From Candidatus Woesearchaeota archaeon (GTDB lineage: Archaea; Nanobdellota; Nanobdellia; CAYMVK01; CAYYFB01), in the NCBI GenBank assembly GCA_964471255.1, contig CAYYFB010000001.1, forward strand, positions 37,923-101,922: a stretch of DNA of 64,000 nucleotides, in the 5' to 3' direction. Made by a program: the position numbers and the translations under genes. The notes beneath the pieces were generated by a model. That model worked only from the letters and a program-made list of their open reading frames with translations, ran no database searches and was not told where the DNA came from. Positions 22,401 to 63,309 of the stretch are shown piece after piece. How positions within the stretch are numbered: the stretch's first letter is position 1; every line of letters starts with the position of its first letter.

Positions 22401-23731
22401 AATACATATTTTCTTATCTATTTGCTGGATGTGGTGATAAGATTTGCATGCCATTTAGAGGGGAAAGATGCTATGTTAGGGTCTGCCCTGAATGTTCTCC
22501 GGCTTCTATTAGCCGACAATATGGGATAGATTACTACTATCGCAATTACCAAGATCTCTACAATAAGTATTGTACCCAAGGAAATTGCTACAATATCGAA
22601 TACTGTTATTGTCCAGATTATAATGAGGAATGCGATTATAGGGTAAGAGATATATTTGGTTGCGTAAAAATAAAGGGAATTGGGGAAGAGGCTTCAGCAA
22701 AGTGCCAATGCGATTGGATAAGAAATGTAACTCTAACTAAAAAAGACTATTGTTGCCCAATTGATTCCCAAATAGCATTTTCCCATAAACCCGGAGTATT
22801 TAGATATTTATCAACAGAATTTCTGACTTTAGGAAGAATAGGAGAAGGGGATTATTATACCACCAGAATCTATCTTGAGAATTCTAATTGCGGAAATATA
22901 ACTACCGGATTCTATGGATTTACTGCTGCAAACTTGGATATACTTACTGATGCTTACTGCGAATTATCTCCAAGCAAAGTATTAGAATTATTTGGGGATT
23001 GTCTAGGAAGCTGTAATTGGTGGGATATTGGATGTTTGCTAACCAATTGCTGGAATGAATTGACAAGTTATGCAATTGATTGTTCACGGATCGTTCTTCT
23101 TCCAGTCCTTCGATCAGTTCCAGTAGGAGAAATTCCAGGTTATGTATTATCCAAAGTGAATATTACTTATTTTGACCCGGAAGACAAAGATTTCAAGAAG
23201 CTGGATTGGGATACATTAGCTAGCAGTTATGGAGATAATATAAGGAAATATCGAGAAAAATCAGATCAAGGAAAAGCAGATATAGTTGATATAGGAGGAG
23301 AGAAATATCTATTGCAGGATTGTACATTAAAGGAATGCACTTGTGTAGATGGGGAACCAGTAAATTGGGAGCCAGAACCAATTTGGTGGGGGATAATTCC
23401 TGTGGGATTAAGAGTGCATATAGAGAAGTATAGATGCCATGTGTGGGAGTGTAAAGGGGCACATATAATTTATTCGGAGGTAGACGTAACTCCAAAGGAA
23501 ATTGGGACCTTTTTATTCCTCTCATTGGAAATTGTGCAAAGAGGCGAAGAACCTCTTGCGTTTTCTAGAACTTGTGGCTACAGAACTGGGGAAAATGAAA
23601 CTGAGTATTGTAGTATTTCTTTACCAGAAGGCTGCCGAATTAATTGGGGGAAGGATCCAAGCGGAGAGTTTGTAGAAAATATAGCTTGTGGCTGGAGAGT
23701 GTCACCACCTTTGGGTTATCCTACTGCTTAA
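19472..23731 (+). CDS. giant (1419 aa) secreted cysteine-rich protein
   Basis: Signal-like N-terminus (MKKICIILAPIVFLTQTFLFS from ATG 19484). Cys is dense throughout (CCTPFCQAPVHCYCAASCGPGYWDCGPCIQAC ...) and the protein is W/Y/G/N-rich. No recognised domain. Confidence 0.8.
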   Translation: MNIYMKKICIILAPIVFLTQTFLFSLKIENYDICIIENVYPDRKCCTPFCQAPVHCYCAASCGPGYWDCGPCIQACEPIIPYLYLVDVIGHTNCRSWVSGDTWFCTVDRKYISTCNVNVKNYWKLSADVCKASYQAAYWGMKNRGVYDRWGGDLFGWGQDAVGHEVWWASCGSACSNERALGKIKPICADYYWAYKEINITYNLTDTDITLRKSDYTPGPYLIGWAINGNSDYHIIVSEDTKTFRYDKEKCGSESCWQKFQRDNSEFNAISGIDPNEGEEIVLIIDQDAFEVLKTEEDNGNTVLYYLIKLGYLDPNVNPGEAMGSWTRLDSYKNLYKFIYWATLAGKEIKNNYNNFLDLMPFSRRYGVDKPICGGEGWELTEDYFGDQYVVKSGSNPSCFCKKEKLLLTYYETKWRDSAGSPTGLGNCYNGYCTDVYLLQDAQIYIDTEKKKSWEWMDGSVDYYKWKGKFVKLSADLVISGNYKPSGTYKYYYIQIPETGEPVIKYTPSGRKVYWRNKYVDDLIDTISFKIERTTECEENEWGDVFCYTSYDMYLRNNLGSERVCRGRDGAFIVNEKYPDPACIKKSLYDLLEEEFNKSYFLNRKVPEYTLRVPLNTSFLVGFEVRNEGEGEITFGYYFQIAKGNQLLQEKSSREPDNCFWVDENGNIGTGDVSLPADSKAYVFCKFDVLEEEGCYDLSFVVFLKLNGKYIDFDGDGLDFSKAGTPDLQDGFLFARVILNAGRIINETNVGAVNESLQLVTKFWRRIELDAKQFASGFRDEPFNSSSISFNKDPLSERFAYLFTDTGDITVTFSTNKKAVFLRVWRIDQDNEIEEIESILNINGINNTEIYLSEGNSWYIIDVVFAGSTAGKIYLNGMEIPQRFAGNCTWPHFNYGYCRYSKGEIGDTFKYQTGLDWNQSWRILDCVFQEYPDCMRIDYNPAIYHLEHRISALLWSAAYSPTSVPVKVYEAEIEGQKYIFSYLFAGCGDKICMPFRGERCYVRVCPECSPASISRQYGIDYYYRNYQDLYNKYCTQGNCYNIEYCYCPDYNEECDYRVRDIFGCVKIKGIGEEASAKCQCDWIRNVTLTKKDYCCPIDSQIAFSHKPGVFRYLSTEFLTLGRIGEGDYYTTRIYLENSNCGNITTGFYGFTAANLDILTDAYCELSPSKVLELFGDCLGSCNWWDIGCLLTNCWNELTSYAIDCSRIVLLPVLRSVPVGEIPGYVLSKVNITYFDPEDKDFKKLDWDTLASSYGDNIRKYREKSDQGKADIVDIGGEKYLLQDCTLKECTCVDGEPVNWEPEPIWWGIIPVGLRVHIEKYRCHVWECKGAHIIYSEVDVTPKEIGTFLFLSLEIVQRGEEPLAFSRTCGYRTGENETEYCSISLPEGCRINWGKDPSGEFVENIACGWRVSPPLGYPTA

Positions 23732-43277: not shown

Positions 43278-44306
43278 GTGAAAGGGGAGGAAGAAACAAC
43301 TTTTGCCTGGGCTGCTATCTTGGTTTTTCTAATAGCCATAATAGTTGGAATATATTTCGTTACACCCGAATTCAGAGAAGCTTTGGGAATTGGTGTTCCT
43401 CCTCCTCCAGAAAAAATAGAAATTTTAATAAATCAGTGGATAGGAGAACCTAAAGAGAATATAGAGAGAATTTCTTTAGCCGAACCCTTTGATTTAAAAT
43501 ATCTCAAGGAGAAAATTTTAATAGAGGAAAGAACAGCAAAAATGTCCTCCAGCATTTTTAAACCCAGTTCCATTATTCTCCAGGCAGGTGCAGATGAAAT
43601 TCTAGAACTTGAGCCCATTTCTTCTACTGGAGTCATAGAAGTTCAGATAGGAGATCAAATTATGAGCCTAACTGCAAGAAAAGAAATAGTTGGGCCAAAA
43701 ATAGTGAAAGTTATCTGTAAAGTTAGTGGATTTAGGCTAGCTGCTTCTTGCCAATTAATCTATAAAAGATATAGGGTTCGGGAAATTGGGATTAAAACCA
43801 AAGAAAGAGTCTCTTTTTCATTGGAAAATGCTTACGGATCTGGAGTAGTAAGTATTTCTGGCATAGGGAGATGCGATCTAATTATTTATCTAAATAACAG
43901 AAAGATTTGGGAAGGGAACATCCTAGGCTCTAATACAATTCCTGTAGAAAATCTTCAATTAGGAAATAATGTCCTAGAATTAAAAGCTAAGCCAGGTGCA
44001 GACTGTTCTATCAGGGAGATTCTAATTACGGCGTATGGTAAGACGACGCCCCGCTCTGTTGAAAGGAAGTTTGATAAGTTGGCTGGTGATTTTAGGGTTT
44101 TTCTAGATGTTGAAAAAACAGAAGGAGATCCTATTATAACAGTGACAATCCTTGGGAAAGAAAAAGTATCATTCCGATATAACCTTACTTCCCCTGCTTC
44201 CCCGCCCGTTAGGGAAGACGTACTCCTAAGAAAAGGAAATGTAATAAAAATAGAAGTCAAAAATGGAAGAATATTGTTAGATAAGATAAGGTTGTCCGTT
44301 ATATGA
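43278..44306 (+). CDS. membrane-anchored beta-rich hypothetical protein (operon gene 1 of 4), GTG start
   Basis: N-terminal TM FAWAAILVFLIAIIVGIYFV, the rest beta-rich. Its stop overlaps the next start (ATGA). Confidence 0.65.
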   Translation: MKGEEETTFAWAAILVFLIAIIVGIYFVTPEFREALGIGVPPPPEKIEILINQWIGEPKENIERISLAEPFDLKYLKEKILIEERTAKMSSSIFKPSSIILQAGADEILELEPISSTGVIEVQIGDQIMSLTARKEIVGPKIVKVICKVSGFRLAASCQLIYKRYRVREIGIKTKERVSFSLENAYGSGVVSISGIGRCDLIIYLNNRKIWEGNILGSNTIPVENLQLGNNVLELKAKPGADCSIREILITAYGKTTPRSVERKFDKLAGDFRVFLDVEKTEGDPIITVTILGKEKVSFRYNLTSPASPPVREDVLLRKGNVIKIEVKNGRILLDKIRLSVI

Positions 44307-46189
44307 TAGAATTTCTTTCTAAAACATTTTATTATCTTTCTACTGTACCAGATTTTATTATCTTGCTGAGCAATTTTGTTGTAGGGGCATTTTTTCCACA
44401 ATTGATATTTGGTATTTCATCTTCAGAAGAAGAGAAAGGACGATTAATCGGATGTCTTTTCCTAATACTGGGTTTCCTTGTTATAAACATTGTATTACCA
44501 TATAGTCCTATTGGATTCGGAGGGCCATCTTTTTTGTCTATAGTTCCTTCTTTTATTATCTTTTCTGCACTTACAGCTATATTGGTCTATGTTCTCCGTG
44601 AATTTTCAGAAACTGAGGAGGCAGGAAAGCGCTTCCTTTTCTACATGCTCTGTATTTTCGACTCTTTCATCTTTATGTTTCCACTTAACTTTTTGGCAGG
44701 TGGAATAAATGGTCTTATTTTTGGAGGCATAGCACAGCTTCTAATGGGGGTTGCAGCAGCTGTTCCACAAGGAATTGGATTATTTATGGAATTTCCTACT
44801 GTGTGTTTAGTCTTTATTCTTACTCTCCTTTATGGCGAGATCTCCGGATGGATTTCTGAAAAGTTAGGGATTCTCTTAGTAGCATGTATTGCTGTTGTTA
44901 TTATAATATCCCTTATACTAACCCACGCTCTAGAGGCCCCAAAGGTAACGTACTTGTTTCTTGTTTTATTGATAATAGCTAATTTCACCGCCCTTCCTTA
45001 TATTTTTTCCTTTCTAAACTTGCCTGGAGAAGTGGTATATAAAGTAAGGACAGGTACAGAAGAAGCAGCAAAAAGGCTGGAGGTTTGGTATAAATACTTA
45101 GAAATGTATAGAAAAATGAAAGGGAACGAAACCTTACGTAGACTATTTGGAATGGTAAGCTACGAAAGACCGCCTCCAGGGGAATGGGTTATATATGTGG
45201 ATAAAGAGGTGGAGTTAAAGATAAATTCGGTATTTAATGACTATCGTAGTGAAAAGAAAAGGCTAAACATTACAGTTTACGGAACGGTACGAAACCCATT
45301 TGAATTTCCTGTTAAAATCAGGAGTTTAGAAATGGAGGTAAAGGACATAGAGGCTCCAATAGAAGGTGTTCTTACACCGTTAAAAATAACACCTAGAACC
45401 ATTTGCACCCCAGAAGGGGGGTTCCAACTCTCAGCTGGAGAAGAGAGGGCTATTGAATGTACTGCTACTTTAGACGGTATCGATAGTGATGCGTACTCTG
45501 AAGTATTCTATACCGTATCACTCAAGGCAAGCTATCTTATTGCAGCAGCCTCAACTCAGGAAATAACCATACTGGGAGAAGAGGAATATAAGTCAAGATT
45601 AAGATGGGGAACACTAAAGGAGGAAGAACCAAAAAGCTACTCAAGCTGGGGCCCATTACTTTGCGTTGTTAAAGAGACAAAATACCAAAAGAGCCCAATT
45701 CCAGCGAGGGACAACCAAGTGTCATTGGCATTTTCCATGTACACAATTTATGGTGCTGGTTCTGGAAGGGTGAAGAAAATGTATGGATACATACTTGTGC
45801 TCCCTCAGAAAGTCGGTAACTCCGAAATAGAGGTACCAAGTAAAGGACTTGACTCTGGCTGTGGGAGGGGGGTGACAAGCCAAATTCACGAACTAATTAG
45901 TGAATTGAAAGATATAACTAAAGAAGAGGCAATTATTTACGGGTATTCTCTTTACAATTTAGATACATTCAAAAAGGAACTAGAAGATCTAGGATGGCAG
46001 ATGGTCTCTTGCAAAATAAATGTCGGAGAATATAAAGCCGATCCTACTCAAAGAGGAGAGGTAAAACAAATAAAAGTAAATATAAAAAATATCGGAGATA
46101 GTGACGTCATTATCCTCAGACCAGTTGCTTACTTTGTGTATGAATATGAATCCATAGCTTCAAAAGTCGGGAAGGCGATACTCACATGA
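44303..46189 (+). CDS. polytopic membrane protein with a large beta-rich C-terminal domain (operon gene 2 of 4)
   Basis: 628 aa. The first 250 aa or so are strongly hydrophobic with multiple helices, followed by a soluble domain. ATGA overlaps on both sides. Confidence 0.7.
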   Translation: MIEFLSKTFYYLSTVPDFIILLSNFVVGAFFPQLIFGISSSEEEKGRLIGCLFLILGFLVINIVLPYSPIGFGGPSFLSIVPSFIIFSALTAILVYVLREFSETEEAGKRFLFYMLCIFDSFIFMFPLNFLAGGINGLIFGGIAQLLMGVAAAVPQGIGLFMEFPTVCLVFILTLLYGEISGWISEKLGILLVACIAVVIIISLILTHALEAPKVTYLFLVLLIIANFTALPYIFSFLNLPGEVVYKVRTGTEEAAKRLEVWYKYLEMYRKMKGNETLRRLFGMVSYERPPPGEWVIYVDKEVELKINSVFNDYRSEKKRLNITVYGTVRNPFEFPVKIRSLEMEVKDIEAPIEGVLTPLKITPRTICTPEGGFQLSAGEERAIECTATLDGIDSDAYSEVFYTVSLKASYLIAAASTQEITILGEEEYKSRLRWGTLKEEEPKSYSSWGPLLCVVKETKYQKSPIPARDNQVSLAFSMYTIYGAGSGRVKKMYGYILVLPQKVGNSEIEVPSKGLDSGCGRGVTSQIHELISELKDITKEEAIIYGYSLYNLDTFKKELEDLGWQMVSCKINVGEYKADPTQRGEVKQIKVNIKNIGDSDVIILRPVAYFVYEYESIASKVGKAILT

Positions 46190-47331
46190 GAGAAGGGGTA
46201 TCAGTCCTTATTTTTATTTCCATAGCTTTTATTGTAGCTACATCCGGATGCTTAAAAATGATGGGGGTAACTCAAGAGGAATTAGAAGAGCTTGGGTTAT
46301 CCGAGTCTCCTTTCTTCTCATTTCTTGCAGGGGGAGTAAAAAAGAAGGTTGTTACACCAGAAAAAAAGATAGAAGCTCCAAAATATGTCGGAATGGATAT
46401 CTTACTTATAGAATATCCAAAATCTATAATTCCGGGGTCAATTTTTGACATGACGGTTGTTATAGGAAATAATTACTATGGGAGTACTGCTGGAAATGTC
46501 GTCCTTACGGTTAGATTCCCTCCAGGCTTTAATATAAGTGTTGTAGATGCGGCAACCCAAAACATAACCTTACTTCCAGAAGGAAATCCAAACGTAGCAG
46601 TAATAAAGTATGATAAAATAGATTACAACGAGGGGGATGTCATTACTCTAACTGTAAAGGCCCCACCAAGAGAAGTAACGGGCTCTATAAGGGACTTCTG
46701 GAAGATAGATTTCTCTCTTACCTATTGGTACTCCACTTTTACTAGACTCACTACACGAATTACTTCTACTTCTTACTACAGAAATATTCTTGGAGTTGAA
46801 AACATAACTCCCATAGAAGTAAAAAGGATGGCCGGGGAGCTTTCTATTTATCCAGAATTGGAAAAGATAGGTAGAGGCCCTATAAAGATACCTGACAGTG
46901 TTTTTGGAGGAGGGGGTCTTTCCTTTCCTAAAGTTTTTACTTTTAGATTTTCGAATGATGGGAAAGGAATAGTACTAGGTAATGTTACATTTTATTTTAT
47001 AGGTATAAGAAGAGAAGGGTTTATAACAACTGAGATTCTTACTGGCGCTGGAATTTGGAAAGAAGCTGATAGGAAAGACCTTCAGAAACTCTCTTCTCTC
47101 GGGTTAGAAATGGCACACAGAATGCTTTTAGATAGCATGTCTGCAGGATATCCTATATATAAAGCTGAGGTTTCCCCATGGAGAAAGAAAATAGTCCTTC
47201 CTGTTAATATGAAAGATATTTCATCTTCCTTAAAGAACACATTAACTGAATTTCCTGTCTTACTACTCGCAGTTTATCAGTACGAAATAGATAGGACTAT
47301 ATATATTCTGATGGAGAAACAAGGTATATGA
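46186..47331 (+). CDS. putative lipoprotein with a CARDB/Ig-like beta-sandwich segment (operon gene 3 of 4)
   Basis: Signal peptide plus lipobox-like VATSGC. IIPGSIFDMTVVIGNNYYGSTAGNVVLTVRFPPGF resembles CARDB-type domains. Confidence 0.65.
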   Translation: MREGVSVLIFISIAFIVATSGCLKMMGVTQEELEELGLSESPFFSFLAGGVKKKVVTPEKKIEAPKYVGMDILLIEYPKSIIPGSIFDMTVVIGNNYYGSTAGNVVLTVRFPPGFNISVVDAATQNITLLPEGNPNVAVIKYDKIDYNEGDVITLTVKAPPREVTGSIRDFWKIDFSLTYWYSTFTRLTTRITSTSYYRNILGVENITPIEVKRMAGELSIYPELEKIGRGPIKIPDSVFGGGGLSFPKVFTFRFSNDGKGIVLGNVTFYFIGIRREGFITTEILTGAGIWKEADRKDLQKLSSLGLEMAHRMLLDSMSAGYPIYKAEVSPWRKKIVLPVNMKDISSSLKNTLTEFPVLLLAVYQYEIDRTIYILMEKQGI

Positions 47332-48329
47332 AGAAGGAATTTCCTATTTTCCTTTTTTCTCTGATTTTAACTCTTATGCTAACTGGTTGTATCCAAAAAG
47401 GTGAAAGGGGGAACATTTCTAAAACTGCTGCTATAAGCTATGCTCCTTATCCCTCATTTTATGCTGAAATAGTACTCCCACCCATTAAGAGCATTGCTGT
47501 AAACGAGAAACTCCCAGTCAAGTTAAGTATATACAACCAAGGAGAAGAAGACATGTTGATTAGATGGGTAAGAGTTGAAGGCTCTACTTCTGGACTTGCT
47601 ATTTACCCTTCCCCCAAAATTGAGATTAATAAAAAGGTAAAACCAGGAAGGTTCCTAAGGACGTATTTTAATATAACCCCTTACATCACTCCATGGGAAC
47701 AGGTGTCAAAAACCCTGTACTTTTCTGTGTGTTATGATTATAAATCAATAATTGAAATTCAGGATATTTACCTAACAACAAGTGAGGAAAGTTACTTAGA
47801 AAAGAAAGATTTAAAACTCAAATCACCAAAGTCAAAATCTCCAGTAGTTATAGAAGTAGAAGAATTTAAAAATGGAATTACCATACCTCTAAAGTCTGCT
47901 TATTTGCTAAAAAGAAAAGGAAATTACTATGAAGTCGATTTAGATCTTTCCATAAGGATAAGAAATCTAGGAAAAGGAAAAGTATTTAAGGAGTGTAAAA
48001 ATCTACAGAAAGGCTTGAAAAGTCTTATTCTAGAGTTTTGGTTTCCTCCAGAAGTTGATGTTAGCATACCTGTGGATGAAAATCCCGATATAGAACAAGG
48101 AGGAGTAAGTATAGAAGAGGAAGAAGCTTACAAGAAAGTTAGAATAGAAATAAAGAAAACCTCGTTAGAATATCTGTCTTCTTTAGATGAAATAAATCCA
48201 ATTATTCATCTAAAAATAAAAACCAAGGAAGAGTTCGAAGGAGCCTTTACAATAAGAGCTGAGACCTCTTTTTCTTATAGAGATATCATGAAAGATGCTT
48301 CATTTACCCTTACAATAACAGAAAGATAA
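47328..48329 (+). CDS. putative lipoprotein (operon gene 4 of 4)
   Basis: Signal peptide plus lipobox-like LMLTGC; LPVKLSIYNQGEEDMLIRWVRVEG is Ig-like. Confidence 0.65.
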   Translation: MKKEFPIFLFSLILTLMLTGCIQKGERGNISKTAAISYAPYPSFYAEIVLPPIKSIAVNEKLPVKLSIYNQGEEDMLIRWVRVEGSTSGLAIYPSPKIEINKKVKPGRFLRTYFNITPYITPWEQVSKTLYFSVCYDYKSIIEIQDIYLTTSEESYLEKKDLKLKSPKSKSPVVIEVEEFKNGITIPLKSAYLLKRKGNYYEVDLDLSIRIRNLGKGKVFKECKNLQKGLKSLILEFWFPPEVDVSIPVDENPDIEQGGVSIEEEEAYKKVRIEIKKTSLEYLSSLDEINPIIHLKIKTKEEFEGAFTIRAETSFSYRDIMKDASFTLTITER

Positions 48330-55197: not shown

Positions 55198-56275
55198 TTA
55201 AAGTACTTCGCACCAAAATGCTTTTAAATATAACATATGAAAGGGTGGGAATATGTGGTCTGGGGACTGAAAAGTTGTCCATTTAATGCGGGCCTTCTTT
55301 CCTACTTTTTCGGATACTTTCTTCAAGAGGTCCAAAAAAGTTTTAAAATTAACAATTTTATCACAAAAAGATGCAATAACCCATTCTTTTGCTACCTTTA
55401 ATGCTTTTTGTAGCAACACACTATAGCTCTTTAAAGCGTTTTCCTTGCTCATATAAGAAGAGTATGCCGGGGGATCCACTATAACAACATCATATGAGGC
55501 TTCCTCTACTGGAAGCTTGAAAAAATCTTCGTTTAGTATTTTTCCCTCTACCCTATTAAGTTCTAAATTTTTAGTTAGAAATTTAACTGCCGTTTTGCTT
55601 TTTTCATTGAAGGTAACCTCACATCCCTTTAAAGCGGCATGTATGCCGAAGCCGCCACTGTAACAAAAACAATCAAGTACTTTCTCATTTCCTGAAAGTA
55701 TTTTGTAAAAAAGTAGGCGATTCTCTCTCTGATCAAGATAGAATCCTGTTTTTTGGCCTTTTATGATGTCTATGAAAAATTTTGCTTTCCCCTCTTGGAT
55801 TATTGTCTCTTTTTTTTTGACCCCATATGAAAAAATTCTTATCTTTCCGATAAATTGTTACGTTCTCGCCAAATATTGAAGTTAATCGAGACAGAAGCCC
55901 TTCATAAAGAGAAGTTTCACTAATTATGACTATTATATCATTATACTTATCTATTATTAGGCCAGGCAAGCCATCAGAATCTCCAAATACAATTCTTCCA
56001 GATTTAAAATATCCTATCTTTTTTCGATATTGGATTGCAGCCTTGATTTTGGAAAAAAATACTTCATCAATTTCCTTTTCATCTGTAGAATATATTCTTA
56101 AGCAAAATTTTTTATTTTTTTCAAAAAACCCATACCCTACAAAGGTGTTTCTATAGTAAACTTCGCAGAATGCTTTTTTAGGAGCTTTTTTAATATATTC
56201 GATAGAAAAGCTAAGTCTTCCATTCTTAAATTCCAGGAAACCATTTCTAGTTATCTTACACTTACTTGCTTTCAT
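55198..56275 (-). pseudogene. RlmI/COG1092-type SAM-dependent RNA methyltransferase (PUA-like N-terminus), interrupted by a 1-nt frameshift in an A9 run
   Basis: ORF 55733..56275 (...RIVFGDSDGLPGLIIDKYNDIIVI...) continues after the T9/A9 run at 55810..55818 in the frame of ORF 55198..55479. That frame reads ...ETIIQEGKAKFFIDIIKGQKTGFYLDQRENR...VLDCFCYSGGFGIHAA...VVIVDPPAY.... An A8 run would restore one 358-aa ORF. Confidence 0.8.
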
Positions 56276-57405
56276 TAAGGAAGAAAGATTTTATTCTCTA
56301 TTTTTTCTGGCAAATATTTTTCAGCTACAAATTCCAATGATTTAGACGCAAGGGCCTGTTGTTCTAACCTCACTTTTAGCTCTATCATTTTACTCAGTTC
56401 TCGTTTCCACTCCTCAAATCTGGATATCCAAGGATATCTTAACATTTCTTTCGCCCTTTTGACATCAACTTCCTTTAGCTTTTCTAGTACGTTTGTCAAT
56501 CTGTATCTCTTTATATCTTCTAAACACATTCCTACGTACTTCGCATCAGGGATTGCTAATTTTTCAGAGAGATACGCTAAGTTCATCGAACCGCTTTTTA
56601 GGACAAAATAGATATAGAAGCCCCAAGGATCGCAGTCATTGAACACTATTATAGGTAAGTTGTACTCATATCTTAACCTGTTAAGGAGCCTTCTCACTCC
56701 ACGAGAAGCTTGGCCTTGAGTTGTTATAAGTATTGCCCTACTCTTTTTTGGAAATCCTTCTTCTATCAATCTTTCATACATTGCTGCTGATTCTATAACT
56801 AAAACATAGTCAGCATTAATATCTTTTATCTCTATCTCTTCTATAGTCGAAGGAATAGCCCACCCCCCTCGCCCTAATTTTGCGGGCACAAACTCAGCGA
56901 ATTCGCCAGGAATACTTTTGTCAACAATTACTATGTCCCCAAAGAGAGCTCCTCTTCTATCGGCTGTGATATGAAATTGTTCTCTTATTGCTTTACCTCT
57001 AAACAACCTTTCTAAATCCTCTATTGCCTTTATTGTTTCAGCTTCACATTCAAAGGTATTTTCTTTTGAGAATGGCAAATGATGCTTAAGCTGATAATAC
57101 ATTTCTCTCTGAGAAGCATGTTTTCCGGATTCTAACAGCTTTATTACTCTTGAAGCAACTAAAATTGTCTGAACGAACCTCCTTACATGAGCAGCATTGA
57201 AAAATTCTCTCTCACTCAATTTTTCTCCTAATTTTATTAGACCTTTTACCTCATCGAACCTTATATTAAGGAAACCTCTAGAACTTAGCCTTATTTTTAC
57301 TTCTTTCCCTTCTTTAAGTAATTCGTAGATTTCTTTTAACTTTTCTAAAAGTGCATCATGTAGATCCATATCCTTGTGTAAGGATTTTTTTCTTAATTTT
57401 TTCAA
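56275..57405 (-). CDS. top6A: DNA topoisomerase VI subunit A (Spo11-like)
   Basis: SQREMYYQL (catalytic Tyr region); Toprim region VIESAAMYERL...FNDCDPWGFYIY. Confidence 0.85.
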   Translation of the reverse strand: MKKLRKKSLHKDMDLHDALLEKLKEIYELLKEGKEVKIRLSSRGFLNIRFDEVKGLIKLGEKLSEREFFNAAHVRRFVQTILVASRVIKLLESGKHASQREMYYQLKHHLPFSKENTFECEAETIKAIEDLERLFRGKAIREQFHITADRRGALFGDIVIVDKSIPGEFAEFVPAKLGRGGWAIPSTIEEIEIKDINADYVLVIESAAMYERLIEEGFPKKSRAILITTQGQASRGVRRLLNRLRYEYNLPIIVFNDCDPWGFYIYFVLKSGSMNLAYLSEKLAIPDAKYVGMCLEDIKRYRLTNVLEKLKEVDVKRAKEMLRYPWISRFEEWKRELSKMIELKVRLEQQALASKSLEFVAEKYLPEKIENKIFLP

Positions 57406-58951
57406 ATTTTCCTTTTAGAATTAGCTCTATATCATAGTCCGAAAGAACATCACCAAAAATCTTTTTCGAGATTGCCTTGCAAATTTCGAAAGAAGGATCC
57501 TCACCAAACAGTTCTTGGAATGCTCTAGAAATTTCTATGCCATATCTTACAAAATCTAAGAATTTTTCCCATTTTTGCCCCTTTCTTTCCTTTTCTCTTA
57601 TATATCTTTGCAATTTCCTAGCAACTTCTCTAACCCCAAGCTCTACCTCTTTCAATATTTCTGGGTAGGAAGCAACAGCCATCTTGCTTTCTGAAGTATA
57701 AGGGACCCAAGCAGAGTTAATTGTTACTAGAAGTAACATAGGAGCTTTTGGAAAACCTCTATCATCCGCTGGTATTCCATACGTTTTCCAGTTAATGGAT
57801 TGGACAGCTTTTGTAATAGCACATGAACTTTGCTCGTAAAGGAGAGGGATTTTGTTGGCAATTCTTATTAAAGTGAATCTTTCGATATTCCCCCCGTAAG
57901 CTACAAATACTTGGACTTGGAATGGGATACCCCTGTAGCTGCAAGGTTTACGGGTGGTCGAATATACAACCTCAGGATGAAACTCTTCAAATAAACTTTT
58001 TTCTATTTCTTTCTCATCTATTTTTTGCAAATATCTAGAACTTATAGCTCTTATTTTTGTTTTTTGTAAAACCTTCCAAATTTTTTCTGCATCTTCCTTC
58101 CTAAGCGAAGAAGGAACACTTTGTAAAATTTCTTTGGAAATTCCTTGAGAAAGAAGATGATTTATTATCTTGTCCGATATGCCATAGAAAGTCTTCTTAA
58201 GAAAATCAATTACAGTACCCTGCTTATACTCCCTCATCATTCTTAGGAATATGCCCAGCTCTATACCATGCGGATGAATTGGTATCATTTTGGGTTTTTC
58301 AGGTACTTTTCTGCTTCTTCTCTTAAAAAGATGTAAATTTCCATCTGGAGTGTATAAAACTACTCTAGCGTAAGGGCTAACCAAAGAAGAATATTTGACA
58401 TACTCTAGAACCTTCTCAGTCCATTGGGCGTCTAAAGTCACTGTTACTCTGAGTCCATGATCTCTGTGCCATTGAATTTTTCTTTTCTCTACAATTATGG
58501 GTGCGTTTCTTTTTACATCGATAAATACTTTAAAAAGATAAGGATCCGACCTCTTTGTTTTAGAAATTATAGTGGCAGGCTCTCCAGTAGTTAGCTGGGA
58601 ATATAAAACAACAGCGCTAATGCCTATTCCTTGTTGCCCCCTTGTTTGCTTTAAAGCATGAAATTTAGAACCGTAGAGGAATCTCCCAAATACATATGGA
58701 ACATCTTTGATGGGAATTCCTGGTCCAGTATCTTCTCCCGTAACTCGATATACATAACTATCTACTTTTTGAATTCTAAGAATAATGTCCCCTAACATTT
58801 CATGTTCTTCAAGCGCATCTAAGCTGTTATCTAGTATTTCCTTTACTGTTGTATATAAGGCTTTTTTCCTAGAATCAAATCCTAATAAATGTCTATTTCT
58901 TTCAAAGAACTCCGCTATTGATATTTCTCTCATCTTTTTGGACTTTTCCAT
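57356..58951 (-). CDS. top6B: DNA topoisomerase VI subunit B (GHKL ATPase)
   Basis: ISIAEFFERNRHLLGFDS...ALYTTVKEILDNSLDA...GEDTGPGIP...RGQQGIGIS. Confidence 0.9.
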   Translation of the reverse strand: MEKSKKMREISIAEFFERNRHLLGFDSRKKALYTTVKEILDNSLDALEEHEMLGDIILRIQKVDSYVYRVTGEDTGPGIPIKDVPYVFGRFLYGSKFHALKQTRGQQGIGISAVVLYSQLTTGEPATIISKTKRSDPYLFKVFIDVKRNAPIIVEKRKIQWHRDHGLRVTVTLDAQWTEKVLEYVKYSSLVSPYARVVLYTPDGNLHLFKRRSRKVPEKPKMIPIHPHGIELGIFLRMMREYKQGTVIDFLKKTFYGISDKIINHLLSQGISKEILQSVPSSLRKEDAEKIWKVLQKTKIRAISSRYLQKIDEKEIEKSLFEEFHPEVVYSTTRKPCSYRGIPFQVQVFVAYGGNIERFTLIRIANKIPLLYEQSSCAITKAVQSINWKTYGIPADDRGFPKAPMLLLVTINSAWVPYTSESKMAVASYPEILKEVELGVREVARKLQRYIREKERKGQKWEKFLDFVRYGIEISRAFQELFGEDPSFEICKAISKKIFGDVLSDYDIELILKGKFEKIKKKILTQGYGST

Positions 58952-58997: not shown

Positions 58998-59836
<839 letters not shown>

Positions 59837-59911: not shown

Positions 59912-60976
59912 TCACATTTTAAATCTTAAAATCCCTCCTATACCACAAAATCTAGAGAACTGAGCTCCTTCCTCCGTGTCCTTTGACACTATAAATACCT
60001 GTGTACCGTATTCTTTAGCCTTTCTAATAAATTCTCTTATTTTTTCTGGATCATAGTCCTCGGAGATTAGCAAATAAGAAAGAGCTCCAAACTCTAACAT
60101 TTTCATGGTTTCATCTTCCCCGTAGACAGCTAAGCCATCGTCTTTAGCTATATGTTCAAAGAAGGAATTGACGATTTTTTTCTCTTTTATTATTTCCTCA
60201 CCAGAAAGCAAATGACTCCCTCTCTGAAGTATCTCTTTCAATCCGTACTCATCCGTATAACAAGTGTCTACAACTCCCAAAATTTTCTTTTTTGTTTCAG
60301 CGTCAATATATTCCTCATAAAGCATTTCTTTGATGGGGCCTGGACCGCCTATTATAATGCCTTTCAAGTCTTCTATTCCCAAATAAAGATCCTTTATCAA
60401 GTAAGATACTTTCTTCAGCCAATCCCTCAAAAGATTTTCACGTACTCTTTGGAATCTTGGGGCACTTGATCCTCCTTTCCTTGTTTTTCCAGGCACCAGA
60501 CTTCTTTCTCTTTTGATTACATCTATCTTTTTCCCCCTTAGTATGCCGAAAGTAGCTTCCTTAGTATCTACAACAACAAGACCATAGCATCCTCTAGCTT
60601 GAGAGAGAAGCTTTTCTAAAGGCTCAGTTAAAAAAGTACTATCACACCTGTATATTTTCAAAGTAGAAGGAATGGGGGGTTCAATTATCCATATCCTGTA
60701 ATCTGGTTTCTCACCACGTCCTGCAATATTTCCGGAAAATATTACTAACCCATTGGGTGGGACTTCTTTGAAATGGCGTAAGGCATGCATTATTTTTTCT
60801 AAAGCTGTTTGAACATTTTTTCTTGTTATATCTGATTTAATATTCTGCGCTGTACTCCACTCTTGCTCTACCATCTTTTTTAAAGCGTTTATATCATAGT
60901 TGGATGGGACATAAATGGTAACTAATTCGGTTCCTCTTCCTCTTATCTTCTTAATTTCATCTAACTGGCGCTTCAA
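59912..60976 (-). CDS. prf1: peptide chain release factor aRF1 with GGS in place of GGQ; TTG start
   Basis: NIKS (AQNIKSDITRKNV) and YxCxxxF (YRCDSTF) are present. The catalytic loop reads GKTRKGGSSAPRFQR (gga gga tca at 60467..60475). The C-terminus GIGGILRFKM is typical of aRF1. Confidence 0.8.
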   Translation of the reverse strand: MKRQLDEIKKIRGRGTELVTIYVPSNYDINALKKMVEQEWSTAQNIKSDITRKNVQTALEKIMHALRHFKEVPPNGLVIFSGNIAGRGEKPDYRIWIIEPPIPSTLKIYRCDSTFLTEPLEKLLSQARGCYGLVVVDTKEATFGILRGKKIDVIKRERSLVPGKTRKGGSSAPRFQRVRENLLRDWLKKVSYLIKDLYLGIEDLKGIIIGGPGPIKEMLYEEYIDAETKKKILGVVDTCYTDEYGLKEILQRGSHLLSGEEIIKEKKIVNSFFEHIAKDDGLAVYGEDETMKMLEFGALSYLLISEDYDPEKIREFIRKAKEYGTQVFIVSKDTEEGAQFSRFCGIGGILRFKM

Positions 60977-61014
60977 TAAGAATATCTCAGCACTACTTAC
61001 AATACCTTACACCC

Positions 61015-61275
61015 TTAGTACATCTTTATTCCATAAAGAAAAATTAGCCAACCAAAAAGACCTATAAGATCTGCCAATTGGAAGGAGGAAGCTCCTAAAG
61101 AAAAAAGGCTCATTCTGAGATAATCCGAGAACACAGGGATTTTCGGAATGGGAAACACAAATTTAAAGAAAATCAGCAACTTGCCATTTCCTAAGAGGCC
61201 TATTAATATCAGGAGCACTCCAATGAATATGACAATGTTTCTCGTCCCGTAACCCATCATTAAGAAACCTTTCAT
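61015..61275 (-). CDS. small hypothetical membrane protein
   Basis: 86 aa with 3 hydrophobic helices. Confidence 0.45.
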   Translation of the reverse strand: MKGFLMMGYGTRNIVIFIGVLLILIGLLGNGKLLIFFKFVFPIPKIPVFSDYLRMSLFSLGASSFQLADLIGLFGWLIFLYGIKMY

Positions 61276-61404: not shown

Positions 61405-63309
61405 ATGCCCCAGGAAGAAAAAAATGATCAAATTAGAGAGTTTGTTGAGAATATAGTCAAAGATTACATTCAGGAGAGGGACTGGGAAGTAAAGGAAAAT
61501 GCAAACAAATTAAGATCACATGGTTGCTTTGTAGATTATCTATACAGAAGGGTTTTAGGGCAAGAATCTATATTAAAATCTGTTTTGCCTCCAGAAGCTG
61601 TTGAGGCCCATAAAAGAGGAGATATGCATGTTCATAAGCTTCCTTATTCAATCTTTATCCCCTATTGTATTGGATGGAGTGTTCCAAAGATTCTAAGATA
61701 CGGATTACGAACGGCTGGTGTGATCTCTGTACCAGCAAAGCATTTAGATGTAGCAATTTCTCATTTCATTAATTTTGCTTATATAGCTGCACATGAATGG
61801 TCTGGAGCAAACGCTTTTTCAGCTATTGACTTGTATTGCGGTGCATTTATAGAAAGAGATAGACTAACCCCACACCAAATTAGACAATACATCCAAGAAC
61901 TGCTGTATGAGGCTAATTATCCTACAAGACTTGGCTATCAATCCATCTTTCTAAACATAACTGTAATGTTAGATACAGTTGAGAGTGTTTTGCAAGAAGA
62001 AGCCATTGTTGGTGGTCATACAGAAGGATGTCTAGGCGATTATCTGGAAGGCGCTATTAAGTTTGTAAGAGAGTTAATTTTAGAGTACAACAGAGGGGAT
62101 GGGAAAGGACAACCATTTACTTTCCCTATTCCCACAGTAATGTTAACACCCAGATTTGATTGGGAAGGAAGGAGATGGGATGATATTACCAACCTTTTCT
62201 TTGAAAATCTGGCAAAAAGAGGAAGTTTCTACCTTTTAAATGGATACAAAACAAGCGTAGAAGGCTTATATGCAATGTGTTGTCGCCTTGCAATTGATTA
62301 TGAAAAGATCTGTAATTATTTGGAAGGCACGAGAAATAGAGCATATGGTACTTGGGCCATTCCAGATGCAACTGGAAGTATAGGAGTCATTACTCTAAAT
62401 CTCCCAAGAATAGCAATATTAAGCAAAGGGGAGGATGAGAAATTCTTTGATCTTTTAGAAAAGAATCTAGAAGTAGCAAGAAAATGTCTTTTAACCATGA
62501 GAAGAAGATATTCAAAGATTTTGGGACTTAATTTGCTCCCTCTTACAAAGTTCTACCTAGGAGGATATAGAGGCCATTTTAATACTTTTGGCATAATTGG
62601 CCTGCCAGAAGCAGCAGCAAACTTTTTCAGAAATCCACACTTGTGGTTAGATTCATCAAAAGAAGAAATAAGAAAAGCTATAGAATGGGAAAAGGAAGTT
62701 ATTGCTTTTATAGATAAATTTGCACAAGAATGTGAATCAAAAGATGGAGTTTTGTATAATGTTGAGGAAGTTCCCGGGGAATCCGCCTGTTATAAATTAG
62801 CACTAAAGGACATCAAAATGTTCAAAGACGAATTTGATAAAGGAGAAATTTTTATACCAGTTAATGAGGGAGAGCCTATTTATTCTAATAGCATAGTACC
62901 TTATTATACTGATCTCTCTATTTATGAAAGAGCTGAGCTTGAGGGAAAGGTTCAAAACCTTTTTACAGCAGGAGTTATGATGCACCTGTTCTTTGGTGAG
63001 GCTCCAGATCCTGAAGCAGTTAAAAAGATAGTCAGAAGGATAGCTGCTAACACAGATGTTGTTTACTTTTCAATAACACCTGCTCAAACTGTGTGTAGAA
63101 TTTGTGGCTGGAAAGCCACAGGAATCTATGAAAGCTGCGAAAGGTGTGGCAATGAAGATGTAGATATCTGGAGTAGGATAGTTGGTTATTACAGGCCTAT
63201 CAGACTATGGAACAGAGGGAGATTTCTCGAATTCAGAAGTAGAGTTCACTATCTCTCTAATGGAAAAATAATTAGGGCAAAGGATATATTAAGGAGAAAA
63301 AGTGTCTAA
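61405..63309 (+). CDS. nrdD: anaerobic ribonucleoside-triphosphate reductase (class III), NrdD
   Basis: 634 aa with a C-terminal Zn ribbon CRICGW...CERCGN followed by the glycyl-radical region SRIVGYYRPI. Confidence 0.85.
   Translation: MPQEEKNDQIREFVENIVKDYIQERDWEVKENANKLRSHGCFVDYLYRRVLGQESILKSVLPPEAVEAHKRGDMHVHKLPYSIFIPYCIGWSVPKILRYGLRTAGVISVPAKHLDVAISHFINFAYIAAHEWSGANAFSAIDLYCGAFIERDRLTPHQIRQYIQELLYEANYPTRLGYQSIFLNITVMLDTVESVLQEEAIVGGHTEGCLGDYLEGAIKFVRELILEYNRGDGKGQPFTFPIPTVMLTPRFDWEGRRWDDITNLFFENLAKRGSFYLLNGYKTSVEGLYAMCCRLAIDYEKICNYLEGTRNRAYGTWAIPDATGSIGVITLNLPRIAILSKGEDEKFFDLLEKNLEVARKCLLTMRRRYSKILGLNLLPLTKFYLGGYRGHFNTFGIIGLPEAAANFFRNPHLWLDSSKEEIRKAIEWEKEVIAFIDKFAQECESKDGVLYNVEEVPGESACYKLALKDIKMFKDEFDKGEIFIPVNEGEPIYSNSIVPYYTDLSIYERAELEGKVQNLFTAGVMMHLFFGEAPDPEAVKKIVRRIAANTDVVYFSITPAQTVCRICGWKATGIYESCERCGNEDVDIWSRIVGYYRPIRLWNRGRFLEFRSRVHYLSNGKIIRAKDILRRKSV

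What the first reader, a model, noticed from the sequence alone, without database searches (positions are those of the whole stretch)
60467..60475. aRF1 carries GGS instead of the universally conserved GGQ
The protein is clearly aRF1, with NIKS, YRCDSTF and a typical C-terminal domain. The catalytic tripeptide loop, however, reads KTRKGGSSAPRFQR (gga gga tca). Converting Ser (tca) to Gln (caa/cag) needs two substitutions, so this is not a one-base error. The Gln of GGQ positions the hydrolytic water in the peptidyl-transferase centre and is the target of the Mtq2/PrmC methyltransferase. Mutational work on bacterial and eukaryotic factors, as I recall it, shows that small-side-chain substitutions slow release and relax nucleophile specificity. 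A natural GGS factor, also about 60 aa shorter than usual and starting at TTG, may be a specialised paralogue such as a rescue or regulatory factor. It could also mean this lineage tolerates an altered termination chemistry.
Basis: partly seen in the sequence, partly recalled or inferred. Interest (0 to 1): 0.65.

Follow-up and report, generated by a model that had tools for sequence, protein, structure and literature searches.

The report
Archaeal release factor lacking catalytic glutamine
A tiny hydrothermal-vent archaeon carries, at the normal chromosomal position of its translation-termination factor aRF1, an otherwise well-conserved copy whose "universally conserved" catalytic GGQ motif reads GGS, and the same change has arisen independently in other DPANN archaea, so the glutamine may not be indispensable in living cells.

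Summary
Window 60467-60475 (minus strand) reads GGA GGA TCA, giving GGS in a 354-aa three-domain aRF1. Contigs from three independent vent metagenomes cover the codon without any difference.

The "specialised paralogue" reading is not supported:
- The gene sits in the same NrdG-NrdD-small ORF-aRF1 arrangement as the GGQ aRF1 of its closest relatives (64-66% identity, Woesearchaeota-labelled MAGs).
- It keeps 83 of 90 highly conserved positions, and it has not diverged faster than its neighbouring genes.
- Its short length is normal for the clade, which lacks the C-domain insertion. A further 11-12 N-terminal residues are lost because a TAA follows the ancestral GTG start.

Q-to-S has arisen at least four times in DPANN aRF1. 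One pair, 81% identical, both carry GGS and show dN/dS of about 0.09.

The substituted residue lies immediately before a widespread intein insertion site. Other aRF1 clades read GG[W/F/M]SQ.

The most likely reading is a working main release factor with a glutamine-less loop that cannot be methylated. I could not test whether it is the only copy in the genome, whether Mtq2 is present, or whether it has release activity. I found no published report of a natural Gln-less aRF1.

The parts
59912..60976 (-). aRF1 coding sequence: 354 aa, TTG start, TGA stop, with N (decoding), M (catalytic loop) and C (aEF1-alpha-binding) domains
   Evidence: The AlphaFold2 model has mean pLDDT 90. The best Foldseek PDB match is aRF1 4AF1 (E 3e-37), and eRF1 5LZT gives TM 0.85.
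60467..60475 (-). GGS tripeptide (GGA GGA TCA) in place of GGQ. Ser170 is the codon at 60467-60469. It lies in the loop just before the long M-domain helix (residues 172-198).
   Evidence: Contigs of three runs are identical here.
60833..60844 (-). NIKS stop-codon recognition motif, intact
60632..60652 (-). YRCDSTF, matching the YxCxxxF decoding motif, intact
59918..59938 (-). C-terminal GGILRFK, the GILRY-type motif of the domain that binds the GTPase partner, intact
60977..61012 (-). Remnant of the ancestral N-terminus. GTG (61010-61012) sits 2 nt after the upstream ORF's stop; in relatives the GTG start follows that stop directly. Here it is followed by TAA (61007-61009), then in-frame GIVSSAEIFL, which still resembles the relatives' N-termini.
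   Evidence: The region is identical in contigs of X1, X2 and X4.
61015..61275 (-). Upstream 86-aa hydrophobic ORF with no Pfam hit. It is conserved in position directly in front of aRF1 in the GGQ relatives, so it is probably co-transcribed with aRF1.
61405..63309 (+). Anaerobic ribonucleotide reductase NrdD, the divergent neighbour. It serves as the synteny anchor shared with the GGQ relatives.
59764..59836 (-). tRNA-Thr (TGT) immediately downstream of aRF1. It is not a suppressor tRNA.

Best explanation
This is the organism's ordinary, orthologous class-I release factor aRF1. The organism is a Woesearchaeota-like DPANN archaeon from hydrothermal vents. In this gene the catalytic Gln of GGQ has been replaced by Ser, and the change is fixed in the population.

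Shown here: the decoding N domain (NIKS, YxCxxxF), the two glycines, the arginine-rich helix after the loop and the C domain are all intact. The gene occupies the ancestral aRF1 locus. It evolves no faster than its neighbours. The genome fragment uses all three stop codons normally.

Inferred: the factor still recognises UAA, UAG and UGA and is delivered by aEF1-alpha-GTP. It inserts its GG-containing loop into the peptidyl-transferase centre and triggers peptidyl-tRNA hydrolysis. In this view the loop backbone and the rRNA do most of the catalytic work, and the small Ser side chain leaves room for the water.

Expected costs, judged from mutant bacterial and eukaryotic factors: slower or less uniform release, poorer exclusion of nucleophiles other than water, and no possibility of N5-methylation by Mtq2. 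A slow-growing, genome-reduced symbiont may tolerate these costs.
For: Identity and integrity:
- All three eRF1 domains are present, and TIGR03676 scores 407 bits.
- The fold matches aRF1/eRF1.
- 83 of 90 positions that are at least 90% conserved among GGQ aRF1s are retained. The 7 deviations compare with 4-7 in GGQ relatives, and Q170S is the only deviation at a column invariant in all 92 GGQ sequences compared.

Orthology:
- The arrangement NrdG-NrdD-small ORF-aRF1 is shared with GGQ relatives L003 and L004, whose MAGs are labelled Candidatus Woesearchaeota.

No acceleration:
- aRF1 identity is 64% (window vs relatives) against 76% (relative vs relative).
- The same comparison for NrdD gives 53-56% against 68.5%, and for NrdG 45-49% against 60%.

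Real and fixed:
- Two assemblies encode the identical protein.
- Contigs of three runs are identical over the GGS codons, and a fourth run holds other parts of the gene.

Standard genetic code:
- Stop codons used are TAA 28, TGA 21 and TAG 10, coding density is 91%, and there is no suppressor tRNA.

Recurrence and maintenance elsewhere:
- P0038 and P0384 carry GGS, while their nearest relative at 81% identity has GGQ.
- P0142, P0143 and P0385 all carry GGS with the same TCC codon. P0142 and P0143 are 80.7% identical with dN 0.126 and dS 1.36, so dN/dS is about 0.09. They share aRF1-CCA enzyme-RadA-like synteny with the GGQ sister P0129.
- P0346 has GGS followed by an intein.

Literature:
- Mutations in GGQ reduce efficiency or admit other nucleophiles in vitro (PMC9589212, citing Shaw & Green 2007).
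Against: - In model bacteria, mutation of any GGQ residue is lethal (PMC9589212, citing Mora 2003), and the literature calls GGQ universal in a/eRF1 (PMC2613156, PMC6144793).
- The same gene has also lost its ancestral start: GTG is followed by TAA. It has one of the shortest N-termini among relatives, in the 2nd percentile. Two odd lesions in one gene could mean relaxed selection.
- The closest relatives (64-66% identity) all have GGQ, so no deep GGS history can be shown for this particular lineage.
- Only 64 kb of the genome was seen, so a second aRF1 cannot be excluded.
- No expression data or activity data exist.
Confidence: 0.55

Rival explanations
1. It is a secondary or specialised aRF1 copy. 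In this reading it binds stop codons without efficient hydrolysis, for example as a stalling, rescue, regulatory or hibernation factor like Pelota or Balon. A canonical GGQ aRF1 encoded elsewhere in the genome would do bulk termination.
For: - Loss of the catalytic Gln is the hallmark of non-hydrolytic relatives such as Dom34/Pelota and most baeRF families (PMC6514570).
- The N-terminus is truncated.
- Only 64 kb of the genome was examined, and neither a second aRF1 nor Pelota lies in it. That says nothing about the rest of the genome.
Against: - It occupies the ancestral aRF1 locus, the same as the only aRF1 seen on relatives' contigs.
- It shows no rate acceleration.
- The decoding motifs and the full-length GG loop are retained, unlike in Pelota.
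- The Pelota model scores below its cutoff, 107.9 against 177.65.
- Apart from contigs identical to the window gene, the only similar DNA in the four samples (at 80% identity or more) was one 2x-depth fragment at 81% identity, against 15.8x for this contig. That is more likely another organism.
Confidence: 0.18
2. It is a recently disabled or decaying allele. Slightly or strongly deleterious mutations (Q170S plus the nonsense codon at the old start) would have drifted to fixation in a small symbiont population, leaving the gene on its way to being a pseudogene or only marginally functional.
For: - Two unusual lesions occur in one gene.
- A non-synonymous variant, Y301H, is seen in one sample.
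- The nearest relatives are all GGQ.
- The in-frame remnant upstream still resembles relatives' N-termini, which suggests the TAA is recent.
Against: - The 354-codon frame is intact and has all other conserved residues.
- An organism that uses all three stop codons needs a working aRF1.
- The same Q-to-S change is held under strong purifying selection in another DPANN lineage, with dN/dS about 0.09.
- The same allele is present in several samples.
Confidence: 0.12
3. The substitution is a by-product of intein biology. The Q/S residue is the last residue before a very common aRF1 intein insertion site. The change could be a scar of imprecise intein loss, or a target-site change that blocks the intein's homing endonuclease. 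This concerns origin, and it is compatible with the protein being functional.
For: - At least 39 of 150 representative aRF1 clusters carry an intein exactly between the third residue of GGX and the following Ser. The intein starts with Cys1 and ends ...VHN|S, and some carry LAGLIDADG and HTH domains.
- One such protein reads GGS|intein (P0346).
- Against relative L003, the window's codons fit deletion of CAG plus a 3-nt insertion (GGG CAG TCA AGC GTA vs GGA TCA AGT GCC CCA).
Against: - Against relative L004 the indel reading does not fit.
- The family consensus GGQSAxRF matches the window loop with a single residue change.
- None of the four closest homologues (P0002-P0005) carries an intein.
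- Endonuclease escape could be achieved with synonymous changes.
Confidence: 0.1
4. It is a sequencing or assembly artefact, or a chimera.
For: The runs are available only as assembler contigs, not raw reads.
Against: - Independent assemblies (ENA, Logan, and the window itself) agree.
- Contigs from three runs cover the site at up to 23x with zero differences.
- Two substitutions would be needed to restore Gln.
- Other GGS aRF1s were seen in unrelated datasets.
Confidence: 0.02

Closest known systems
Canonical archaeal aRF1, short form (Aeropyrum pernix aRF1, PDB 3AGK/3VMF; also 4AF1)
   Same: It has the same three-domain architecture, NIKS, YxCxxxF, the GG of the catalytic loop, the following Arg-rich helix and the C-terminal GILRY-like motif. 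3AGK aligns over residues 3-353, so the absence of the C-domain mini-domain is shared.
   Different: Ser replaces the catalytic, Mtq2-methylated Gln. The N-terminus is 11-12 residues shorter than in its own relatives because a TAA follows the ancestral start.
Engineered Gln mutants of class-I release factors (RF1/RF2 Gln substitutions of Shaw & Green 2007 and Mora 2003; eRF1 Gln185 mutants; aRF1 GGA mutant in PMC6144793)
   Same: A small side chain takes the place of Gln in an otherwise intact factor. The predicted consequences are lower efficiency, relaxed nucleophile choice and no methylation (PMC9589212, PMC5799190, PMC6144793).
   Different: Those are laboratory mutants, reported as lethal in vivo in bacteria. 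This one is natural, fixed in a population, at the orthologous locus, and recurs in nature under purifying selection.
Pelota/Dom34
   Same: It belongs to the same superfamily, lacks the catalytic Gln, is delivered by the same GTPase in archaea, and has similar M and C domains.
   Different: Pelota has an Sm-like N domain without NIKS or YxCxxxF, and a shortened, poorly conserved loop (PMC2613156). The window protein has the decoding N domain and a full-length GG loop. TIGR00111 scores below its cutoff.
aeRF1-superfamily members with the GGxSQ loop (baeRF family 10, aVLRF1/acVLRF1; PMC6514570)
   Same: They show that the GGQ tripeptide is not the only loop solution in the superfamily. Many DPANN-type aRF1s found here read GG[W/F/M]SQ, as do 12 baeRF family 10 loci that read GGWSQ.
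   Different: Those loops keep a Gln two residues downstream. The window's loop, GGSSAPRFQR, has none.
Balon (bacterial aeRF1-like hibernation factor, PMC10901736)
   Same: It is an aeRF1-fold protein that occupies the A site without a functional GGQ. The fold search detects it at low TM of about 0.3.
   Different: Balon lacks the stop-codon decoding motifs, is very divergent (12-16% identity), and is not the orthologue of the termination factor.

Membership tests
aRF1/eRF1 class-I release factor (TIGR03676; Pfam eRF1_1/2/3) | Three-domain architecture with scores above the curated family cutoffs | tested here: met
   eRF1_1 scores 66.8 bits, eRF1_2 111.5 and eRF1_3 97.0. TIGR03676 scores 407.3 against a cutoff of 234.7. 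The AlphaFold2 model has pLDDT 90, and the top Foldseek PDB hits are aRF1/eRF1.
aRF1/eRF1 class-I release factor | Stop-codon decoding motifs NIKS and YxCxxxF in the N domain | tested here: met
   NIKS lies at residues 45-48 and YRCDSTF at 109-115.
aRF1/eRF1 class-I release factor | [quoted passage not shown] | tested here: not met
   The tripeptide is GGS (GGA GGA TCA) at residues 168-170. The column is Q in the 92 GGQ-type sequences used for comparison and in 189 of the 231 collected. There is no Gln at +2.
aRF1/eRF1 class-I release factor | C-terminal domain with the GILRY-type motif for the GTPase partner (aEF1-alpha) | tested here: met
   GGILRFK lies at residues 347-353, and the C domain aligns to 3AGK through residue 353.
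aRF1/eRF1 class-I release factor | Orthology: occupies the same locus as aRF1 in related genomes | tested here: met
   The NrdG-NrdD-small ORF-aRF1 arrangement is shared with L003 and L004, which carry GGQ.
aRF1/eRF1 class-I release factor | Stop-codon-dependent peptidyl-tRNA hydrolysis; only class-I factor in the genome | not testable with these tools
   No biochemistry was possible. Only 64 kb of the genome was available. The genome was not found among the GTDB representatives.
aRF1/eRF1 class-I release factor | Gln N5-methylation by Mtq2(-Trm112) | not testable with these tools
   There is no Gln to methylate. No NPPY-type methyltransferase lies in the window or in the fetched loci of relatives. 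The nearby methyltransferase just outside the window is PCMT-like.
Pelota/Dom34 | Sm-like N domain without NIKS/YxCxxxF, and family score above the cutoff | tested here: not met
   TIGR00111 scores 107.9 bits against a cutoff of 177.65, and matches only residues 133-354. The N domain is eRF1_1.
baeRF family 10 / acVLRF1 (GGxSQ loop) | Best family match, with a Gln two residues after GGx | tested here: not met
   Only secondary hits were found, 34 and 32 bits against 111 bits for eRF1_2. The loop is GGSSA, without the shifted Gln.

The most novel reading that the evidence does not exclude
The catalytic glutamine of the class-I release factor may not be essential in vivo. In this reading, several genome-reduced DPANN archaea have as their only aRF1 a factor whose loop carries Ser and has no nearby Gln. 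Translation termination would then run on a Gln-less factor that cannot be methylated. The change may be linked to loss of Mtq2, or to pressure from the homing intein that targets exactly this codon boundary. Together with the GG[W/F/M]SQ aRF1 clades, this would mean the 'universal GGQ' rule fails across a sizeable part of the archaeal domain.
Probability: 0.45. Interest if true: 0.85.

Novelty: new variant of a known kind. Interest (0 to 1): 0.68.

Why it matters
GGQ is the textbook example of a motif conserved in every class-I release factor across all domains of life. It even arose convergently in unrelated bacterial and archaeo-eukaryotic factors, and its Gln is methylated by dedicated enzymes everywhere it has been examined. 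In-vitro work has long suggested that the Gln side chain is not strictly catalytic, yet in-vivo mutants are lethal.

A natural, orthologous aRF1 with GGS that is maintained by selection, and that recurs independently, would provide a natural experiment. It would show what the Gln and its methylation are really needed for: rate, uniformity across C-terminal residues, or nucleophile exclusion.

It would also give ready-made sequences for release assays. Annotation pipelines and structural models that assume GGQ would need a caveat for DPANN archaea. The coincidence with an intein hot-spot adds a testable link between selfish elements and active-site evolution.

Tried and rejected
- **Sequencing error:** rejected. 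Independent assemblies and three runs agree.
- **Pelota, Balon or baeRF identity:** rejected on domain content and scores.
- **Altered genetic code or suppressor tRNA:** rejected. All three stop codons are used, coding density is 91%, and only two tRNA-Thr genes are present.
- **A compensating Gln two residues downstream (GGxSQ):** absent in this loop.
- **Second aRF1 or Pelota in the window:** none found by phmmer or hmmsearch over six-frame ORFs.
- **Mtq2 in the window or fetched loci:** no NPPY methyltransferase was found. The nearby methyltransferase is PCMT-like. This is uninformative for the whole genome.
- **Finding the source genome:**
  - The first genome-contig scan found nothing.
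  - The second scan, with an alignment, found relatives labelled Candidatus Woesearchaeota but not the window genome.
- **Recent paralogue in the same samples:** laying contigs at 80% identity showed only a 2x-depth, 81%-identical fragment.
- **Expression:** no RNA runs hold the gene.
- **Census of GGS:**
  - A degenerate DNA pattern over JGI metagenome contigs returned only 12 baeRF family 10 genes with GGWSQ and no GGS aRF1.
- **Intein-scar origin:** considered. The codon evidence is ambiguous; it fits L003 but not L004 or the family consensus.
- **dN/dS for the window lineage:** dS is saturated against the 64%-identical relatives. Relative divergence of neighbouring genes was used instead.
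- **Literature:** searches for natural non-Gln aRF1, GGW, GGS or an aRF1 intein found nothing relevant.
Full report
**The observation**

The minus-strand ORF 59912..60976 (TTG start, 354 aa) is an archaeal class-I release factor. All three Pfam eRF1 domains hit. The NCBIfam equivalog TIGR03676 scores 407 bits against a cutoff of 235. The best solved-structure matches are aRF1 and eRF1. Translation of the stated coordinates gives GGA GGA TCA = GGS at 60467-60475. NIKS lies at 60833-60844, YRCDSTF at 60632-60652 and GGILRFK at 59918-59938. In PDB alignments the loop KTRKGGSSAPRFQR lines up residue for residue with ...KGGQSAQRFAR.... An AlphaFold2 model (pLDDT 90) puts residues 168-170 in the loop just before the long M-domain helix. 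Its Foldseek hits are aRF1/eRF1: 4AF1 at E 3e-37 and 5LZT at TM 0.85.

**Is it real?**

An ENA contig and a Logan contig encode the identical protein. Four hydrothermal-vent metagenome runs hold the gene. Contigs from three of them cover the GGS codons at up to 23x with no differences. The runs are stored as contigs, so minority variants cannot be excluded, but an assembly error can.

**What kind of organism and locus?**

The 64-kb window has 35% GC and 91% coding density. It uses TAA, TGA and TAG as stops (28, 21 and 10 times) and carries only two tRNA-Thr genes. It encodes typical archaeal housekeeping genes:
- aminoacyl-tRNA synthetases, S6e, aIF2-alpha, L44e, GINS and TmcA;
- topoisomerase VI A and B, AGOG, NrdD, Trm1, a wyosine enzyme and RNase J.

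The closest aRF1 homologues are 64-66% identical and 365-366 aa long. Two of them come from MAGs labelled Candidatus Woesearchaeota. In those MAGs the arrangement NrdG-NrdD-(77-83-aa hydrophobic ORF)-aRF1 is the same as in the window, and their aRF1 reads GGQSSVRFQR. The window gene is therefore the positional orthologue of a canonical aRF1, not an extra diverged copy.

**Is it decaying?**

Among 92 GGQ homologues, 90 positions of the window protein fall in columns that are at least 90% conserved. The window protein departs from the consensus at 7 of these, against 4-7 for its GGQ relatives. Q170S is its only departure at a column invariant in all 92.

Divergence from the two relatives is proportionally no greater for aRF1 than for its neighbours:

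| Gene | Window vs relatives | Relative vs relative |
|---|---|---|
| aRF1 | 64% | 76% |
| NrdD | 53-56% | 68.5% |
| NrdG | 45-49% | 60% |

dS against these relatives is saturated, so a lineage-specific dN/dS could not be obtained.

**Length and start**

The "60 aa shorter" remark is mostly a clade property. Of the 231 relatives collected, 131 are 360-369 aa. Aeropyrum aRF1 (3AGK) aligns end to end, so the C-domain mini-domain insertion of ~415-aa aRF1s is simply absent.

There is, however, a real N-terminal peculiarity. In relatives the aRF1 GTG start follows the stop of the small upstream ORF directly. In the window the GTG is kept (61010-61012) but is followed by TAA (61007-61009). After that comes in-frame GIVSSAEIFL, still 6/10 identical to relative P0002, and then the first canonical start, TTG at 60976. 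The resulting N-terminus is in the shortest 2% of relatives. The TAA could be a recent nonsense mutation with downstream re-initiation, which is the simplest reading, or a read-through or coupling arrangement. This was not resolved.

**Recurrence**

GGS is not unique to this gene. P0038 and P0384 (Nanopusillaceae-like, TCA codon) carry GGSSALRFQR, while their closest relative (81% identity) has GGQ. P0142, P0143 and P0385 all carry GGSSSVRFQR with the same TCC codon. P0142 and P0143 are 80.7% identical and come from different samples. They lie beside ribosomal-protein genes and share the aRF1-CCA enzyme-RadA-like order with their GGQ sister P0129. Between them dN is 0.126 and dS 1.36, so dN/dS is about 0.09. 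In that lineage, therefore, a GGS aRF1 has been kept under strong purifying selection since the substitution. P0346 is a fourth case, GGS followed by an intein. One GGA was also seen (P0363). In a neighbour-joining analysis each non-intein GGS group has GGQ proteins as nearest neighbours, which indicates independent origins.

**Context that changes the picture**

Two further patterns emerged from the homologue sets.

First, of the 150 best 50%-identity cluster representatives, at least 39 carry an intein inserted exactly between the third residue of GGX and the following Ser. These inteins start with Cys1 and end ...VHN|S. They range from mini-inteins of about 135-146 aa to full inteins of up to about 570 aa. 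Pfam Intein_splicing, LAGLIDADG and HTH domains were confirmed in the two full-length examples tested, P0346 and P0235. The substituted residue is thus the -1 position of a homing-intein hot-spot.

Second, several deep aRF1 clades of about 400 aa have W, F or M at this position. They retain all three eRF1 domains and mostly NIKS. The W is a genuine TGG codon. They sit in ribosomal-protein or aEF2 neighbourhoods, and some are labelled Aenigmatarchaeota. In most, the loop reads GG[W/F/M]SQ. The same GGWSQ loop occurs in bacterial baeRF family 10 genes recovered by a pattern scan. It also matches the GGxSQ motif described for aVLRF1 and acVLRF1 (PMC6514570). Those proteins may therefore use a Gln shifted by two residues. 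The window's loop, GGSSAPRFQR, has no such Gln.

**How it most likely works**

Shown: the decoding, GTPase-binding and loop-scaffold features are intact, the locus is orthologous, the genetic code is standard, and the allele is fixed.

Inferred: the protein is the cell's working omnipotent release factor. The two glycines still allow the loop to reach the peptidyl-transferase centre. [quoted passage not shown] It also reports that GGQ mutations reduce efficiency or admit other nucleophiles in vitro, while being lethal in bacteria (PMC9589212, citing Shaw & Green 2007 and Mora 2003). In Haloferax the aRF1 Gln is methylated by Mtq2, and a GGA mutant is not methylated (PMC6144793).

A GGS factor should therefore release peptides more slowly or less uniformly, discriminate water less well, and escape methylation. 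Slow-growing DPANN symbionts may tolerate these costs. I put this reading at about 0.55.

**Rivals**

- A specialised second copy, with a GGQ aRF1 elsewhere (0.18). Synteny, rate and motif retention argue against it, but it cannot be excluded without the whole genome.
- A recently damaged allele on the way to decay (0.12). The co-occurring start-codon lesion favours it. The intact frame and the organism's need for termination argue against it.
- An intein-related origin, either scar or endonuclease escape (0.10, and compatible with function). The codon evidence is ambiguous.
- An artefact (0.02).

**Comparison with what is known, and novelty**

By descent and architecture this is an aRF1. By the catalytic-motif definition it fails the GGQ criterion, so I class it as a new variant of a known kind.

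The papers I could search describe GGQ as universal in a/eRF1 (PMC2613156, PMC6144793, PMC5799190). I found no report of a natural Gln-less aRF1, of GG[W/F/M]SQ aRF1s, or of an aRF1 intein. The library is incomplete, so prior description elsewhere cannot be excluded.

**What remains open**

Open questions are copy number in the genome, presence of Mtq2 and Trm112, expression and the true start codon, and catalytic activity. The decisive steps are listed in the decisive-next-steps field.

Noticed in passing
window 61007-61012 (minus strand), with in-frame remnant 60977-61006: The ancestral GTG start of aRF1 sits 2 nt after the upstream ORF's stop; in relatives it follows that stop directly. Here it is followed at once by TAA. 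The next 10 in-frame codons (GIVSSAEIFL) still resemble relatives' N-termini. The first usable start is TTG at 60976. This could be a recent nonsense mutation with re-initiation, or a start-stop or read-through arrangement in the release factor's own gene.
   Followed up: partly
related proteins P0234-P0346 (e.g. P0235, P0242, P0346); the site corresponds to window 60466/60467: A widespread intein insertion site lies in aRF1 exactly after the third residue of the GGQ motif, in the form GGX|C...VHN|S. Both mini-inteins (about 135-146 aa) and full inteins of up to about 570 aa occur; LAGLIDADG and HTH domains were confirmed in the two full-length ones tested. At least 39 of 150 representative clusters carry one. 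I found no paper describing it.
   Followed up: partly
related proteins, e.g. P0104 (L020:8001-9203), P0023 (L021:6001-7203), P0109, P0204: Deep clades of genuine three-domain aRF1 of about 400 aa have Trp, Phe or Met instead of Gln, and most keep NIKS. In most of them the loop reads GG[W/F/M]SQ. The W is a real TGG codon. They sit in ribosomal-protein or aEF2 neighbourhoods, and some are labelled Aenigmatarchaeota. A few read GGWSAN, with no Gln at all. Whether they are the only aRF1 in their genomes is unknown.
   Followed up: partly
L024-L035 (JGI metagenome contigs): Twelve genes of 370-390 aa belong to baeRF family 10 and have the loop VPGKH[KD]QGGWSQ[SA]RFQ. They show the same GGWSQ loop as the W-type aRF1s, consistent with a Gln shifted by two residues in parts of the superfamily.
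   Followed up: partly
window 60076: In run X2 a contig carries A>G, which changes Tyr301 to His in aRF1. It is the only difference seen among the contigs of the four runs that are at least 95% identical to the gene.
   Followed up: no
window 60831-60958: Run X1 holds a 151-nt contig at 2x depth that is 81% identical to the N-domain part of the gene. The main contig is at 15.8x. It is probably a related organism in the same sample. It does not reach the GGQ position.
   Followed up: no
window 10036-13875 (-), 19472-23731 (+): Two very large ORFs, of 1279 and 1419 aa, have no Pfam match. Several other ORFs of 300-630 aa (e.g. 43278-48329) also have none.
   Followed up: no
window 59764-59836 (-) and 58998-59783 (+): The tRNA-Thr(TGT) gene overlaps the last 20 nt of the convergent AGOG-like glycosylase ORF. 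The listed end of that ORF may be too long.
   Followed up: no
window 57356-57405: The ORFs listed for topoisomerase VI subunit B (57356-58951) and subunit A (56275-57405) overlap by 50 nt. The gene caller on the ENA contig places the A start further downstream, so the overlap is likely a start-codon choice.
   Followed up: no
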